Of a DNA stretch of 64,000 nt, positions 31,201 to 34,200 are shown piece after piece. Made by a program: the position numbers. The stretch comes from an uncultured Nitrospiraceae bacterium (lineage in GTDB: Bacteria > Nitrospirota > Nitrospiria > Nitrospirales > Nitrospiraceae). Position 1 is the first letter of the stretch, and each line of letters opens with the position of its first letter. The stretch spans positions 704,001 to 768,000 of the forward strand of contig CAWJWJ010000001.1 in the NCBI GenBank assembly GCA_963846575.1. Direction: 5' to 3'.

Positions 31201-34200
31201 AGATTGTCTAGGCCGAGTCCCGGAGTCGGGAGACGTCGTTTTCCTTCTAACCAGGAGTGCACATCATGCAGAGACTATGGCCTGTTCTTGCCGGTAGCCT
31301 GGCGCTGGTACTCAATCCACTTTCGATCCGCGCCGGGGAGTTCGAAGGGGTGCTCCATATGACCATGAGCCATATGGCGAGCGGCGGTGCGAGCGCGATG
31401 GACTGGTACTTGAAGGGTGACAAGGCGCGCGTGGAAATGTCGCGTGGCGAAGGCCAGAAAAATGTCATGATTTTTGATGCCCAGAGTAGAATCATGCAAA
31501 TGGCGATGCCAGGGCAGAAGAGTTACATGGAAATCAGCATGGGAGGAGATCGAGGGGAGCATCTGAAGGACGCGCTTGAAAAGCAGTCGGTCGAGCGCAC
31601 AGGGAAGACCGATAAGATTGCCGGATACTCCTGTGAAGTGTGGCGCATCATGGATAAAGAAACCAATCGGCTGAAGAATGATATTTGTGTGGCGAAGGGA
31701 TTCGGCAAAGCCGCCACATTCTGGATCGATCCGAAGGACATGCGGCGGTCCTCGCAACCGGCGTGGGTGAAGCAACTCATCGAAGAAGGGGGATTCGGAC
31801 TCCGGAGTGTCCACTACGATGCGCAGGGCAAAGAATCCTCGCGCATGGAGGTGACCAGTATCGACAAAAAACGGCTCGATGCCGGCCTGTTCGCCTTTCC
31901 ATCCGATTGGCCTAGGCATGATATGTCGGGAATGCAGGAACGGATGAAGGCGATGCGTGAACAACAGGGCCAGGGGGGCGAAGATCTCTCCAACATGGTT
32001 GAGAACATGAAGAAACGTAGAGCCAGCCCCGACGGTGGGGGAGCGATCCCCCCGGGGGATGCGGAGCAACCGGACATGAAAGAGATGATGAAACAGTTCG
32101 GCGAGATGATGAAAAAGAAGCAGTCGTCACAGGGCGGACAATAGCGTGAAGGAGCTGGATATGCGAGTTGCCTTGCTGGGACTGGTGGGAGGTATCCTGC
32201 TGACCGTGAGTTCGTCGTGGGCGGGTGATTTTGAAGGAGTTATTGTTCTGAGGGAGATCGCTAATGGGACAAGCTCAGAACAGCAGTGGTTTCTCAAAGG
32301 CGATCGGTTGCGGTTCGAGGAGGGCGGCTCCGACGGGGAGAAGGGTACCATGATCTTCGATGTCAAGAAGAGCGTCTTCTACAGCCTCCAGCATGACGAA
32401 AAGATCTTTTTGGAGATATCGACCGATCAGGCTTCCACGGGCATGCATGACGCGGCGGACGACATGGTGGTCACCAAAACGGGGCGAAGTGAGAAAGTGG
32501 CCGGCTATACGTGCGAGCTCTATCACGCCAAGAGCAGGTCGGACGGCGGCAGTAGCGAGCTCTGCATTGCCAGGGGGATTGGGAATGCAGCCTTGTTCAA
32601 GGTGGCGAACTCCCGGGACGGAGGCAGCTCCATTTTCCCCGGCTGGATGCGTGAGATGTACAAGGATGGCGGGTTCCCGATTAAGGGCGTGGACCGCGAC
32701 GATCGAGGGGAAGAAGAGTCACGCTGGGAAGCAGTGAAAATCGAAAAGAAGCGTCTCGACGACAGAATGTTTTTGCCTCCTCCGGACTATAAGAAGCAGG
32801 ACCTGGCTGTAATGATGAATGGGATGCGGGGCGCCGGAGAAGGCTCCCAATCCCCTTCCGCGCGGGGCGAGAAGGAGAGGGGCGAGACTGATGATGCCCC
32901 GGACATGGATGCCCTGATGAAGCAGTTTGGTGAGGCGATGAAACATGGACAGCCGGAGGGCGGCCGGTAAGGCCGCGTGGTATGGCTTCTCGCAGGCGAC
33001 GTCTGGCGGCAAACGTTCACCCGTCTGCGAAGTGAAGAGCTCTCGCGTTTCAGGAGGGTGTTCGCTCGCTGAGGCACGCATTTCCCCCACGTTGACACGG
33101 TCATTCCGGGAGCGTAGATAGGGTGAGCGGCCCACGTCCAACTCGGTTAGTGGGAGACCGGACAGACCGCGCGGCTGCCGTCAAGATCTCCCTCAAATCC
33201 CACAAAGAGAGGAGGGTGGACGATGAACAATGATACGACTCCACCTGGCCAGTTCGGCCCGTCGATATGAAGGCGGGATCCCTTGCCTGTCATGCCGGCC
33301 GCTCCTCCGTCGGCCATACCTCACGGTAACAAAGACGCGGCACTCTGGCAGTGCCTATTGCGTCCAGATGCCTTTATCGGAACCTTCTGTCGGCATGTAG
33401 CTGGCCAACTCTACGGATTTGGATCCTGGTAGCAGACGAGGGATTTCTCGCACGTGTTCCTATTTCGACGGGTTGCTGGTGGGCCGTGACATCTAAAGTT
33501 GCACCCGGCGTCCTAAGCGCCCGGCACGAGCCTCGAAAAAAAGGGGCTCGTGCAGTCTTGACCAGGAACATGCAGTCAAGCGTAAATACCTAGGGTTGAT
33601 TTTAGGCTTGACAGAATTTTCTCAGGAGCGTAAGACGGAATTGTAACTCTACGACGCTGTGTTAACCGTGACGAGGAATCGAGCGGTGCGCGCCCGTTCT
33701 TCATTCCTTGTCACTCCTCACACCGGGGAGGTTCACAGATGGAAGAACTTACGCCGCCGGACTAGAGTGGCCCGCAGAGATGTGGGCAGGTGTTTCGTCG
33801 GTCGTGCTGGCTGGTTTTTCTGTTGGCTTGTGCTTATGCACTCTCCAAAATTGGGATGTAAGCCACTAGAAGAGAAGAACCAAGTCAATCGCGAGGCACA
33901 CCAAGTATCCTGGGATCAAGGTATCCCCTGACGAAATCCCTGAATCCTAATTCTCGACCGGGTCTCACTGCAGTACCATTTACAATAAGAATTATCGGCG
34001 TCCCAAGCGCCATCCACGGGCGACCTCCCACCGTAGTGTAGGGTCGCCCGTGGCATTTTGTGCGCCTGCTTCACCTTTGTAACTTCCTGCGAGCCGTGAG
34101 TTCGAAGACGGCTATGATGAATGACAGGGAGTCGTCATCGCCCTGGGCTCGGCTCCTTCGGTGCTCACATGCTGAGCGGGGCCGCTTCATGCGGACGCCA

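What a model noticed while it worked through the whole genome (the two positions that open the first line are those of the whole stretch)
33600..34065. A ~420-nt conserved structured non-coding RNA with its own promoter and terminator between convergent genes
The 1.1-kb call-free gap between the convergent genes g00756 and g00757 holds a plus-strand RNA gene of about 420 nt: an invariant TTGACA -35 box (C1:737608-737613), a TAAGAC-type -10 box 17 nt later, a body that folds into a multi-branched structure closed by a long-range helix, and a 13+3-bp GC-rich hairpin followed by CAUUUU (ends near C1:738060). It has no reading frame, no codon periodicity and no Rfam match, and is kept in synteny in most genomes of the genus with compensatory base changes. 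It is a new large ncRNA family of the Nitrospiraceae (recognisable by blastn in at least 11 further genera); invariant single-stranded GGA-containing stretches (AUGGAAG in a hairpin loop, CACGAGGCAC [...]
Evidence so far: Call 58: conserved in 5/5 genomes tested; call 137: 24/27 genus genomes at E<=1e-10 (missing G015, G009, G037). Call 138: 24-sequence alignment of the 490-nt block, identity by codon phase 0.726/0.716/0.707; longest open frame 68-112 codons, on different strands in different genomes. Call 54: no Rfam family (4227) at E<=1. Calls 140,142: RNAalifold -130.8 kcal/mol; 106 pairs in 17 helices, 97.8% of cells paired vs 37-48% when slid; 15 pairs and 57 cells with changes on both sides vs 8.0+-1.5 and 19.3+-4.1 in 500 shuffles (0/500). 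Call 198: blastn in 45 other genomes of the family: matches at E<=1e-6 in 13, from 11 other genera; near full length in G280, G317 (70-71% over ~347 nt) and G179, e [...]
(Added by a program. Inside this text positions count along the whole contig: contig position 704,001 is position 1 of the stretch shown here. "Call 12" and the like, gene names such as g00115 and contig names such as C1 are that model's own, and its searches are not shown. The text may have been shortened before it was handed on; [...] marks where a part breaks off. The agent that wrote the report below was given it as the finding of a first reader that could run no searches.)

Follow-up and report, generated by a model that had tools for sequence, protein, structure and literature searches.

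The report
Abundant Nitrospira-family RNA carrying a mini-ORF
Two neighbouring genes in these nitrite-oxidising bacteria make a very abundant, elaborately folded RNA of about 420 bases that also carries a tiny, conserved eight-codon reading frame, a type of RNA not described before in this environmentally important group.

Summary
Window 33608-34059 (+) is a conserved unit, present in 36 of 39 genus genomes, with no Rfam match and strong covariation. Three points change the picture.

1. The gap holds two tandem paralogous RNA genes. The second, missed one lies at 33092-33556.
2. Every homologue carries a Shine-Dalgarno sequence and a start codon. These open a mini-ORF encoding M-(E/D)-(E/D)-x-(T/S)-P-P-(D/G); in the window it is MEELTPPD, 33739-33765. 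It has the strongest three-base periodicity in the RNA and sits exactly 6 nt before a stable hairpin.
3. A covariance model finds the RNA in 118 of 151 family genomes (26 of 39 genera) and in 0 of 132 genomes of other families. The family is therefore much wider than blastn suggested.

Relatives' copies reach k-mer depths up to 10,095 in four metatranscriptome runs. That is far above anything DNA carry-over could give, so the family is transcribed and abundant.

The CsrA-sponge idea fails: GGA is not enriched, and csrA is missing from most genomes of one genus that always has the RNA. The 3' two-hairpin module is not specific to this RNA, because it also follows amoC genes.

Best reading: a new, independently transcribed structured RNA whose fold is gated by ribosomes on its mini-ORF. 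Its function is unknown.

The parts
33589..33595 (+). Conserved CCTAGGG box about 13 nt upstream of the -35 box of RNA B; role unknown
   Evidence: Nearly invariant in the alignment of 34 genus sequences
33608..33613 (+). -35 box TTGACA of RNA B
   Evidence: Read directly. TTGACA followed 17 nt later by TAnnAn was found in 35 of 35 homologues inspected
33631..33636 (+). -10-like hexamer TAAGAC, non-canonical because it has no final T
   Evidence: Not listed by the consensus scanner. The tRNA, SRP RNA and RNase P RNA promoters of the same genome have canonical -10 boxes
33640..34059 (+). RNA B, the finding: about 420 nt. Both ends are inferred from the promoter and the hairpin plus U-run, not mapped
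   Evidence: Limits of the conserved block, fold, covariation, strand test, abundance of relatives in RNA runs
33673..33709 (+). 5' hairpin P2: GAGG/CCUU plus GAGCGG/CCGUUC, with a conserved GCGCG loop
   Evidence: Consensus fold and per-helix counts: 7 of its 10 outer pairs show changes on both sides
33712..33731 (+). Pyrimidine run CACUCCUC paired with the Shine-Dalgarno-like GGGGAGG (33725-33731)
   Evidence: the SD run pairs with an upstream segment in the local MFE of 48 of 61 homologues
33739..33765 (+). Mini-ORF of RNA B: ATG GAA GAA CTT ACG CCG CCG GAC TAG = MEELTPPD*
   Evidence: Translation, conservation, periodicity
33770..33787 (+). Stable local hairpin GCCCGC/GUGGGC starting 4 nt after the stop codon. 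Its 5' strand can pair with 33959-33964 instead
   Evidence: A hairpin of at least 5 bp and at most -5 kcal/mol forms in 60 of 61 homologues, mean -13.9 kcal/mol. The spacer is 6 nt in 97 of 109
33769..33964 (+). Central domain closed by GGCCCG (33769-33774) with CGGGUC (33959-33964): nested helices and a three-way junction
   Evidence: Consensus folds. Helices with 5 to 8 covarying pairs each
33997..34011 (+). Small hairpin GGCGUCCCAAGCGCC, first part of the 3' module
   Evidence: Only two copies in the genome, 490 nt apart. Invariant across the family
34014..34059 (+). 13+3-bp GC hairpin (34014-34053) followed by CAUUUU: terminator-like second part of the 3' module
   Evidence: The conserved block ends here. 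Not listed by the scanner, which needs at least 5 T
33092..33120 (+). Promoter of the upstream paralogue RNA A: TTGACA, 17 nt, TAGATA, preceded like B by GGAGCG
33124..33556 (+). RNA A, the tandem paralogue of the finding; ends inferred
   Evidence: Model R1 scores it 86.1 bits, E 1.5e-18. nhmmer with the B profile gives E 4e-5. Conserved in 33 of 39 genus genomes. MFE z -3.68
33223..33270 (+). Mini-ORF of RNA A: MNNDTTPPGQFGPSI*, preceded by GAGGAGGG
33507..33553 (+). 3' module of RNA A: small hairpin GGCGUCCUAAGCGCC (33507-33521) and hairpin 33524-33553, with no U-run after it

Best explanation
The finding is the downstream member (B) of two tandem paralogous genes for a family-specific, very abundant, highly structured RNA of about 420 nt. 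The RNA is its own transcription unit, not the leader of a gene.

**Layout, 5' to 3'**
- a promoter with a perfect, invariant -35 box;
- a conserved hairpin (P2);
- a Shine-Dalgarno run that can be masked either by an upstream pyrimidine run or by the Pro-Pro codons;
- an AUG that opens a mini-ORF whose first eight codons are conserved as protein: M-(E/D)-(E/D)-x-(T/S)-P-P-(D/G);
- a 6-nt spacer of fixed length and free sequence;
- a stable GC hairpin whose 5' strand can instead close a 200-nt covarying central domain;
- a portable two-hairpin 3' module that ends the transcript.

**Proposed mechanism (inferred).** Ribosomes load on the mini-ORF. With Pro-Pro in the E and P sites and the Asp or Gly codon in the A site, the hairpin stands at the mRNA entry of the ribosome. 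Ribosome occupancy, which would depend on how fast Pro-Pro is translated, then decides which of the two pairings of GGCCCG forms. That in turn sets the fold of the central domain, which acts in trans on a partner still unknown.

**Shown:** conservation, structure, copy number, distribution, abundance of relatives in RNA libraries, coding-type conservation of the mini-ORF, and the fixed spacing.

**Inferred:** transcript ends, translation, pausing, the switch, and action in trans.
For: **Gene and structure**
- blastn finds the RNA in 36 of 39 genus genomes.
- Covariance model R1 finds it in 118 of 151 family genomes, 26 of 39 genera and 98 of 114 high-quality genomes, with 1 to 3 copies each. 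It finds none in 132 genomes of 21 other families of the phylum.
- Covariation: 43 pairs and 300 cells changed on both sides, against 24.6+-2.5 and 100+-11 in 300 shuffles. 92% of cells are paired, against 40-50% when slid.
- Strand: 92.1% of cells are standard pairs on the + strand against 83.7% on the - strand; 626 G-U cells against 122 A-C cells.
- TTGACA, 17 nt, TAnnAn is present in 35 of 35 homologues inspected.

**Tandem paralogue:**

**Expression**
- In four RNA runs from three studies, short contigs carrying relatives' sequence over 33722-33809 have k-mer depths of 10,095 and 5,364 (X19, 757 M letters), 3,462-4,329 (X3, 100 M letters) and 2,820 (X5, 285 M letters).
- Their unaligned ends match genus homologues.
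- A single-copy locus of a 4.2-Mb genome cannot exceed about 24-180x from DNA even if the whole library were that genome.

**Mini-ORF**
- An SD-like run, a start codon and Pro-Pro at codons 4-9 occur in 109 of 109 distinct R1 hits.
- Synonymous and conservative codon changes occur between genera and between paralogues.
- Mean entropy at codon positions 1, 2 and 3 of codons 2-8 is 0.18, 0.37 and 1.07 bits.
- The eight best of 1146 window-and-phase periodicity scores all lie in this frame.
- Beyond codon 8 the ORF stops or runs on (8, 14-16 or 20-25 codons), as expected if only the act of translating the start matters.

**Geometry**
- The spacer is exactly 6 nt in 97 of 109 hits; the other 12 were not matched by my pattern. 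Its sequence is the most variable stretch nearby.
- The hairpin forms in 60 of 61 homologues.
- Compensatory changes in the local hairpin are seen in L050 and L065.

**Not a leader.** The downstream gene is convergent in the window (GDPD). It is convergent in the PPK2 / RNA / amino-acid permease arrangement of other genera.
Against: - Nothing here shows translation directly. The SD run pairs with an upstream segment in the local MFE of 48 of 61 homologues. The consensus fold places the AUG in a hairpin loop whose stem joins the SD region to the Pro-Pro codons. RNA pairing alone could therefore explain GGAGG and CCNCC.
- Within the genus the ORF is almost invariant even at synonymous sites: 2 variable positions in 24 nt across 34 genomes. 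RNA-level constraint is therefore present as well.
- In E. coli, Pro runs preceded by Thr or Asn are weak pausers (PMC8129111, passages read). That Asp or Gly after Pro-Pro strengthens pausing is recalled, not checked here.
- The -10 hexamer lacks its final T, the U-run has 4 U, and the consensus scanner lists neither promoter nor terminator.
- Transcript ends and strand are not mapped. The RNA evidence comes from assembled contigs of relatives, not from this organism, and contigs cannot show ends or strand.
- Model R1 contains the ORF region, so the 109 of 109 count is partly built in.
- The 5'-3' closing helix is not in the consensus fold. The duplex test gave a mean z of -0.21, with 6 of 63 below -2.
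- No target or partner is known.
Confidence: 0.4

Rival explanations
1. A purely non-coding structured RNA. The GGAGG run, the AUG and CCNCC are structural or protein-contact elements: a hairpin with AUGGA in its loop. No ribosome ever reads the frame, and the RNA works through its fold alone, by binding a protein or forming an assembly like other large orphan RNAs.
For: - Strong covariation over 100 pairs.
- The SD region pairs with the Pro-Pro codons and encloses the AUG in a loop.
- The SD run is masked by an upstream segment in 48 of 61 homologues.
- There is almost no synonymous variation within the genus.
- An 8-residue product is very small.
- The conserved GGCCCG that lies in frame is explained by a helix, not by coding.
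Against: - Third-position variation occurs in all 7 codons while first positions are nearly fixed: 0.18, 0.37 and 1.07 bits.
- This is the strongest periodicity in the whole RNA and lies in the AUG frame.
- Glu and Asp interchange, and Thr, Pro, Asp and Gly codons change synonymously between paralogues and genera.
- A start codon 5-9 nt after an SD-like run is present in 109 of 109 hits.
Confidence: 0.3
2. An mRNA for a very small peptide of 8 to 25 residues, which is the real effector. The long structured remainder and the 3' module only stabilise the transcript.
For: - Coding-type conservation of the first 8 codons.
- A strong SD run and high abundance.
- The same 3' module follows the highly expressed amoC mRNAs, as a stabiliser would.
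Against: - The peptide length is not kept: 8, 14-16 or 20-25 residues.
- The 200-nt central domain has invariant unpaired stretches and helix-by-helix covariation, far more than stability needs.
- The fixed 6-nt spacer to the hairpin points to ribosome geometry, not to a product.
Confidence: 0.1
3. A cis-acting leader or attenuator. Translation of the mini-ORF controls read-through of the 3' hairpin into whatever lies downstream: the second copy, an MscS-like gene or a CBS-domain gene.
For: - The leader-peptide-like layout.
- The U-run after the hairpin is weak or absent in several genera and after RNA A.
- In genera g8 and g12 a small MscS-like gene follows on the same strand about 77 nt downstream. 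In L053 a CBS-domain gene starts right after the RNA.
- One RNA-run contig bridges the 3' end of A and the start of B.
Against: - In the window, and in the PPK2 / RNA / permease arrangement seen in at least five genera, the next gene is convergent.
- No remnant of the MscS-like gene is in the window.
- About 250 nt of conserved structure lie between the ORF and the hairpin.
- No conserved pairing that would disrupt the 13-bp stem was found.
- The conserved block ends at the hairpin.
Confidence: 0.07
4. A CsrB/RsmZ-type sponge that titrates the RNA-binding protein CsrA through GGA motifs in loops.
For: - csrA is present in this genome.
- AUGGA sits in a hairpin loop, and an ACNGGAUA-like stretch is conserved.
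- High abundance and paralogous copies resemble Csr/Rsm RNAs.
Against: - GGA occurs 6 times in RNA B against 6.5+-2.2 in shuffles, and 9 times in RNA A against 7.6+-2.4.
- Genus g2 has the RNA in 18 of 18 genomes but csrA in 2 of 18. Genera g27, g28, g29, g6 and g9 have the RNA without csrA. Genera g33, g23 and g15 have csrA without the RNA.
Confidence: 0.03
5. A 6S- or Ms1-like RNA that binds RNA polymerase.
For: Abundant, structured and partly rod-like, with its own promoter.
Against: - No match to the Rfam 6S model at the locus.
- A separate 6S-like locus exists at C2:1549834-1549908, scoring 40.3 bits against a cut-off of 46.4, with the conserved central sequence aligned.
- No open-promoter-like central bubble is evident in the consensus fold.
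Confidence: 0.03

Closest known systems
rnTrpL / peTrpL of Sinorhizobium meliloti: an attenuator-derived small RNA and its 14-residue leader peptide (abstracts of PMC7968998 and PMC7298713 seen in the listing)
   Same: A terminated small transcript that contains a tiny translated ORF. The RNA, and there also the peptide, act in trans.
   Different: rnTrpL is a short attenuator upstream of trpE(G) with Trp codons. This RNA is about 420 nt, has no downstream gene in most settings, has Pro-Pro rather than regulatory Trp codons, and carries a 200-nt covarying domain.
Proline-codon leader ORFs such as mgtL in the Salmonella mgtA leader (recalled; no call)
   Same: A short ORF with Pro codons lies inside a long structured RNA. 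Ribosome progress chooses between alternative stem-loops.
   Different: Those act in cis on the gene downstream. Here the transcript ends at its own hairpin and the next gene is usually convergent.
Dual-function small RNAs: SgrS/SgrT, RNAIII/delta-haemolysin, SR1/SR1P (recalled; no call)
   Same: An independent transcription unit with its own promoter and terminator, a structured RNA body and a small ORF.
   Different: Their peptides have 26-43 residues of defined length. Here only 8 codons are conserved and the length varies from 8 to 25. No base-pairing target is known.
Large orphan structured RNAs in Rfam (OLE, GOLLD, ROOL, raiA motif)
   Same: Size, many covarying helices, narrow phyletic range, unknown function.
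   Different: No match to any of 4227 Rfam families. As far as I recall, none of those carries a conserved SD-plus-AUG mini-ORF.
Ribosome pausing or recoding signals made of a slow site, a 5-9-nt spacer and a stable structure (recalled; no call)
   Same: Pro-Pro-(Asp/Gly) is followed by a spacer of fixed length (6 nt) and free sequence, then a GC hairpin.
   Different: No slippery heptamer and no extended second frame were seen. Most genus copies stop one codon after the motif.

Membership tests
Any Rfam 15 family (4227 covariance models) | Score at or above the family's gathering threshold, or at least a low E-value | tested here: not met
   Locus at E<=10: only four chance-level hits to eukaryotic or viral families, far below threshold. 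Whole window at gathering score: tmRNA and a tRNA elsewhere. Ten homologous loci at E<=0.1: none.
6S RNA | Match to RF00013; a rod of about 180 nt with a central bubble | tested here: not met
   No 6S hit at the locus. The best 6S-like locus in the genome is elsewhere, at 40.3 bits.
RNase P RNA, SRP RNA, tmRNA | Being the genome's copy of these universal RNAs | tested here: not met
   All three are found elsewhere above threshold: RNase P RNA at C2:219840, SRP RNA at C1:840469, tmRNA at window 24348-24701.
CsrB/RsmZ-type CsrA sponge | Many GGA motifs, enriched over chance and mostly in hairpin loops | tested here: not met
   6 GGA in 420 nt against 6.5+-2.2 in 2000 shuffles.
CsrB/RsmZ-type CsrA sponge | Co-occurrence with csrA | tested here: not met
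   Genus g2 has the RNA in 18 of 18 genomes but csrA in 2 of 18. Several genera have one without the other.
Ribosome-dependent transcription attenuator (leader peptide) | A short ORF with an SD run inside a terminated leader | tested here: met
   SD run, AUG and a conserved ORF, then a hairpin with a U-run.
Ribosome-dependent transcription attenuator (leader peptide) | A co-directional regulated gene immediately downstream | tested here: not met
   The next gene is convergent in the window and in the PPK2 / RNA / permease arrangement. A co-directional gene follows only in g8, g12 and L053.
Ribosome-dependent transcription attenuator (leader peptide) | An antiterminator pairing that competes with the terminator stem | tested here: inconclusive
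   Alternative pairings exist for GGCCCG. None was found that involves the 13-bp terminator stem.
Dual-function small RNA | Own promoter and terminator, not part of an mRNA | tested here: inconclusive
   Conserved TTGACA, 17 nt, TAnnAn in 35 of 35 homologues, and the conserved block ends at the hairpin. However, the -10 box is non-canonical, the scanner is negative and the ends are not mapped.
Dual-function small RNA | The ORF is translated | not testable with these tools
   Only evolutionary evidence is available. Ribosome profiling or toeprinting is needed.
Intrinsic (factor-independent) terminator | A GC-rich stem-loop directly followed by a U-run | tested here: inconclusive
   A 13+3-bp stem followed by CAUUUU. 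The scanner needs at least 5 T and a loop of 3-8 nt and does not list it. The U-run is weaker or absent in some genera.

The most novel reading that the evidence does not exclude
The RNA is a ribosome-gated riboregulator that reports translation capacity in these slow-growing nitrifiers. A ribosome held on Pro-Pro-(Asp/Gly) in an eight-codon ORF, with a hairpin exactly at its mRNA entrance, flips a 200-nt domain between two folds.

The shared 3' module contains an ACCUCC stretch like the anti-Shine-Dalgarno sequence. It also ends amoC mRNAs in ammonia-oxidising members of the family. It would then be part of a family-wide post-transcriptional system that couples ribosome status to the expression or stability of the most abundant transcripts of nitrification.
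Probability: 0.12. Interest if true: 0.85.

Novelty: new variant of a known kind. Interest (0 to 1): 0.72.

Why it matters
The bacterial family that carries this RNA performs nitrite oxidation, and in some members complete ammonia oxidation, in soils, waters and wastewater plants. Its members grow slowly and cannot be manipulated genetically, so almost nothing is known about their RNA-level regulation.

- This is a family-wide RNA, kept in one to three copies per genome. Relatives' copies are among the very abundant transcripts in sludge metatranscriptomes.
- It gives a concrete object to map in existing Nitrospira RNA-seq data.
- It is a candidate marker transcript for activity.
- It offers a compact test case for how a tiny ORF, a Pro-Pro motif and a precisely spaced hairpin might gate the fold of a large RNA.
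- It warns that 'non-coding' calls based on whole-block periodicity can miss an eight-codon frame.

Tried and rejected
1. **CsrA sponge.** Rejected on GGA counts and phyletic pattern. Hfq was not found in the genome.
2. **6S, RNase P, SRP RNA or tmRNA identity.** All are located elsewhere.
3. **Remnant of the MscS-like gene downstream of the RNA in the window.** tblastn gave only chance hits at E>=2.4.
4. **Automated test of the 5'-3' closing helix.** Duplex energy against 200 shuffles of the 5' segment gave a mean z of -0.21, with 6 of 63 below -2. It did not discriminate. The helix rests on inspection (AUUGUAA with UUACAAU in the window, GCGGCCC with GGGCCGC in most other genera) and on the single-sequence MFE. 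The consensus fold omits it.
5. **Consensus promoter and terminator scan.** It lists neither element of the RNA.
6. **Genome search with a DNA alignment.** I used the covariance-model route that the same tool offers instead.
7. **Sequencing runs holding this organism's own RNA.** None was found. All 24 runs held only a small share of the words, so the reads laid are relatives' contigs. The parts of the stretch without cover (33300-33480, 33820-33965, 34080-34400) say nothing, because relatives diverge there. The conserved part of RNA A (33146-33300) was not in the stretch laid, so its expression is untested.
8. **Earlier notes of this scan.** Nothing by place, sequence or words.
9. **Literature.** Four full-text searches listed no paper on a Nitrospira RNA of this kind. 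I saw only listings and abstract starts, plus passages of PMC8129111.

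
Full report
**1. What is at the coordinates.**
- The sequence reads as described: TTGACA at 33608-33613, TAAGAC 17 nt later at 33631-33636, a body of about 420 nt, a small hairpin GGCGTCCCAAGCGCC at 33997-34011, and a 13+3-bp GC hairpin at 34014-34053 followed by CATTTT.
- The flanking genes are two DUF4412 genes on the + strand, ending at 32970, and a GDPD-family gene on the - strand from 34315. The gap is 1344 nt.
- The locus is single copy in the 4.2-Mb genome.
- No Rfam family matches. At E<=10 on the locus there are only four chance-level hits. At gathering score the whole window holds only a tmRNA at 24348-24701 and a tRNA. Ten homologous loci from other genera give nothing at E<=0.1.
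- The + strand folds to -168.9 kcal/mol, z -5.24 against 100 shuffles. The - strand folds to -157.8 kcal/mol, z -3.20.

**2. Conservation in the genus.**
- blastn finds the block in 36 of 39 genus genomes, this one included, at 73-83% identity. G009, G015 and G037 give no match.
- In an alignment of 34 of these, conservation begins at a CCTAGGG box about 13 nt upstream of the -35 box. It ends sharply after CATTTT. This is the footprint of a self-contained transcription unit.

**3. A second gene in the same gap.**
- The 15-nt small hairpin occurs exactly twice in the genome, both on the + strand and 490 nt apart.
- Upstream of the first copy lies a second promoter of the same make: TTGACA at 33092-33097, 17 nt, TAGATA. 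As in B, it is preceded by GGAGCG.
- This upstream stretch is conserved in 33 of 39 genus genomes, always a few hundred bases upstream of the first RNA.
- A profile of RNA B finds it in the window at E 4e-5. In genera g8 and g12 it finds the equivalent stretch at E 6e-11 to 8.5e-27.
- Covariance model R1 scores it 86.1 bits, E 1.5e-18.
- The gap therefore holds two tandem paralogues: A at about 33124-33556 and B, the finding. A's last hairpin (33524-33553) has no U-run after it.

**4. Distribution.**
- blastn outside the genus mostly catches only the last 60 nt: 81 of 151 family genomes and 15 of 39 genera. In a phylum sample it finds 40 of 50 family genomes and 1 of 250 genomes of other families, and that one hit is a 26-nt match at E 7.6e-4.
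- A profile HMM of the genus alignment gives near-full-length matches at all 13 distant loci first fetched, E 4e-41 to 2e-85. It gives the same in 14 of 20 further loci.
- Covariance model R1 covers the 5' half (145 positions). It finds the RNA in 118 of 151 family genomes, 98 of 114 high-quality ones and 26 of 39 genera, usually in 1 to 3 copies. G015, which blastn missed, is among them.
- R1 finds nothing in 132 genomes of 21 other families of the phylum, while 17 of 18 family genomes in the same sample match.
- These tallies include three genomes flagged as unpublished (G090, G111, G044). No sequence analysed in detail comes from them.

**5. Structure.**
- I aligned 61 distinct full-length sequences from about 15 genera. 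RNAalifold predicts 100 pairs.
- 92.1% of cells are standard pairs, against 40-50% when the 3' partners are slid by 1-3 columns.
- 43 pairs and 300 cells show changes on both sides, against 24.6+-2.5 and 100+-11 in 300 column shuffles. None of the 300 shuffles reaches the observed values.
- The shuffles ignore relatedness, and the structure was derived from the same alignment, so these numbers overstate the case. Even so, individual helices carry 5 to 8 covarying pairs each.
- The fold has three parts. The first is a 5' hairpin (33673-33709). The second is a central domain closed by GGCCCG (33769-33774) with CGGGUC (33959-33964), containing nested helices and a three-way junction. The third is the 3' module.
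- Read from the other strand, only 83.7% of cells would pair. G-U cells outnumber A-C cells 626 to 122. The + strand is therefore the RNA strand.
- A helix joining the 5' end to 33980-33986 appears in the single-sequence MFE. By eye it swaps wholesale between clades. The consensus fold omits it, and my duplex test did not discriminate. I treat it as tentative.

**6. The mini-ORF.**
- RNA B contains GGGGAGG at 33725-33731. Seven bases later comes ATG GAA GAA CTT ACG CCG CCG GAC TAG, which reads MEELTPPD*.
- All 34 genus copies encode MEELTPPD. In 25 a stop follows; in 9 the frame runs on to 14 residues.
- Paralogue A encodes MNNDTTPPGQFGPSI* behind GAGGAGGG.
- Other genera encode peptides such as MEELTPPDHDRPPR, MEERSPPGQNGLPN, MDDATPPGSSGPPMRGRVSRRSR, MEDLSPPDHNGPPSHGRASRQSR and MSDLSPPGQDGLPR.
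All 109 have an SD-like run, a start codon and Pro-Pro at codons 4-9. The next residue is Gly in 56, Asp in 49 and another residue in 4. ORF lengths are 8, 14-16 or 20-25 codons.
- Because R1 includes this region, that count is partly built in. The pattern of change is the independent part.
- Over 55 distinct strings, the mean entropy at codon positions 1, 2 and 3 of codons 2-8 is 0.18, 0.37 and 1.07 bits. Codons 9-10 vary at all positions. Codons 11-13 are fixed at all positions, being a helix strand.
- Among 1146 combinations of 21-column window and phase along the whole RNA, the eight with the strongest three-base contrast all overlap this ORF in its own frame.
- Codons differ synonymously or conservatively between genera and between the two paralogues: GAA/GAG/GAC/GAT, ACG/ACT/ACA/AGT, CCG/CCA, CCG/CCT and GAC/GAT/GGC/GGT.
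- Against translation, within the genus the 24 nt are nearly invariant even at synonymous sites. The SD run pairs with an upstream pyrimidine run in the local MFE of 48 of 61 homologues. The consensus fold pairs the SD region with the Pro-Pro codons and places the AUG in the loop.
- I put the odds that ribosomes read this frame at about 60%.

**7. Geometry behind the ORF.**
- After the codon that follows Pro-Pro come 6 nt whose sequence is the most variable in the region.
- Their length is exactly 6 in 97 of 109 distinct homologues. The other 12 were not matched by my pattern, and no other short spacing was seen.
- Then comes a GC hairpin (33770-33787 in the window), which forms in 60 of 61 homologues with a mean of -13.9 kcal/mol. 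Compensatory changes occur in two lineages (L050 and L065).
- Its 5' strand overlaps GGCCCG, which in the consensus fold closes the central domain. The two pairings exclude each other.
- With the Asp or Gly codon in the A site, the hairpin would stand at the ribosome's mRNA entrance. This follows from general knowledge of ribosome dimensions and was not tested.

**8. Expression.**
- No public run holds this organism's own RNA. All 24 runs found held under a tenth of the sampled words; 18 are on record as RNA, from 20 studies.
- I laid the contigs of four RNA runs from three studies at 80% likeness.
- Short contigs over 33722-33809 have k-mer depths of 10,095 and 5,364 (X19, 757 M letters), 3,462-4,329 (X3, 100 M letters) and 2,820 (X5, 285 M letters). 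Contigs over the 3' module (33991-34064) have lower depths, for example 54-152 in X3.
- The unaligned ends of these contigs read on in the sequence of genus relatives as seen, so they are true family members.
- If an entire library were DNA of one 4.2-Mb genome, depth could not exceed about 24x (X3) to 180x (X19). The depths seen must come from transcripts.
- Contigs cannot show ends, strand or the level in this organism. RNA A's conserved part was not in the stretch laid.

**9. The 3' module is portable.**
- In genus g19, extra matches to the last 70 nt lie 43-94 nt after the stop codons of genes that Pfam identifies as AmoC, E 1e-88 to 4e-97.
- There the small hairpin and the lower stem are kept, with compensatory changes, while the apical part differs.
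- A match to the 3' hairpin alone therefore does not show the RNA.
- The module is probably a general transcript-end or stability element of the family.

**10. Context.** Three arrangements recur.
- DUF4412, then A and B, then a convergent GDPD gene, in g1, g8 and g12. In g8 and g12 a small MscS-like gene lies between, on the RNA's strand.
- PPK2, then the RNA, then a convergent amino-acid permease, in g2, g10, g14, g19 and g25.
- Single cases such as the RNA followed by a CBS-domain gene.

No gene is consistently downstream on the same strand, which argues against a cis-acting leader.

**11. Promoter and terminator caveats.**
- TTGACA, 17 nt, TAnnAn is present in 35 of 35 homologues inspected, with a conserved spacer and G(C/A)G before the -10 box.
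- The -10 box lacks the final T. The tRNA, SRP RNA and RNase P RNA promoters of this genome do have it.
- The consensus scanner lists neither the promoter nor the terminator. An alternative sigma factor or an activator is possible.

**12. Rival identities.**
- RNase P RNA, SRP RNA and tmRNA lie elsewhere in the genome.
- A 6S-like RNA, just under the cut-off, also lies elsewhere.
- The CsrA-sponge idea fails. GGA is not enriched. csrA is absent from 16 of 18 g2 genomes, all of which have the RNA.

**13. Reading.**
- Well supported: a new, family-restricted, tandemly duplicated, abundant, structured RNA gene.
- Probable: ribosomes engage its mini-ORF.
- Inferred: ribosome occupancy at Pro-Pro-(Asp/Gly) selects between two pairings and so gates a trans-acting central domain.
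- In E. coli, Pro runs preceded by Thr or Asn are weak pausers (PMC8129111, passages), so the strength of any pause is open.
- Four literature searches listed no report of this RNA.

Noticed in passing
L077:2-661, L081:1-618, L084:201-839 and the 150 nt after each stop codon (genus g19): AmoC genes of ammonia-oxidising members of the family are followed, 43-94 nt after the stop, by the same two-hairpin module that ends this RNA. The stems show compensatory changes. It looks like a shared transcript-end or stability element.
   Followed up: partly
window 34020-34033 and the same place in the amoC 3' modules: The 5' arm of the big 3' hairpin carries ACCUCC, a stretch like the anti-Shine-Dalgarno sequence. 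It is kept in the RNA family and in 3 of the 4 amoC modules seen. It is complementary to the RNA's own SD run.
   Followed up: no
window 33589-33595 and 33614-33630: A CCTAGGG box upstream of the -35 box, and a conserved promoter spacer (TTTTCT.A..G.GCG), are kept across the genus and partly across the family. This suggests a regulator or an unusual sigma factor.
   Followed up: no
window 24348-24701 and 47917-48000: A tmRNA gene (189.3 bits) and a tRNA gene lie in the same window.
   Followed up: no
G000:C2:1549834-1549908 (L031:1501-1575): A probable 6S RNA scores 40.3 bits, just under Rfam's cut-off of 46.4. Only model positions 59-134 are matched, so the family's 6S RNA seems divergent.
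   Followed up: partly
family-wide: csrA is patchy in the family: 84 of 151 genomes, nearly absent from genus g2 and present in all sampled g1. Hfq was not found in this genome.
   Followed up: partly
L107:2590-2719 (G015, the genus genome missed by blastn): This genome has a divergent copy (41.6 bits) with the mini-ORF MEDLSPPDHDGPLL. It has no recognisable 3' module within 330 nt and lies in a different gene neighbourhood (DUF3386, DUF5069).
   Followed up: partly
L104 and L105 (genus g2, third copies): These dispersed copies keep the promoter and the mini-ORF (MEDLSPPDLNGPPS) but lack the usual 3' module within 330 nt. L102 has a DDE transposase gene about 800 nt downstream.
   Followed up: no
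window 33524-33553: The terminal hairpin of RNA A has an A-rich loop and no U-run. One RNA-run contig of a relative bridges A's 3' end to B's start, so some read-through from A into B is possible.
   Followed up: no
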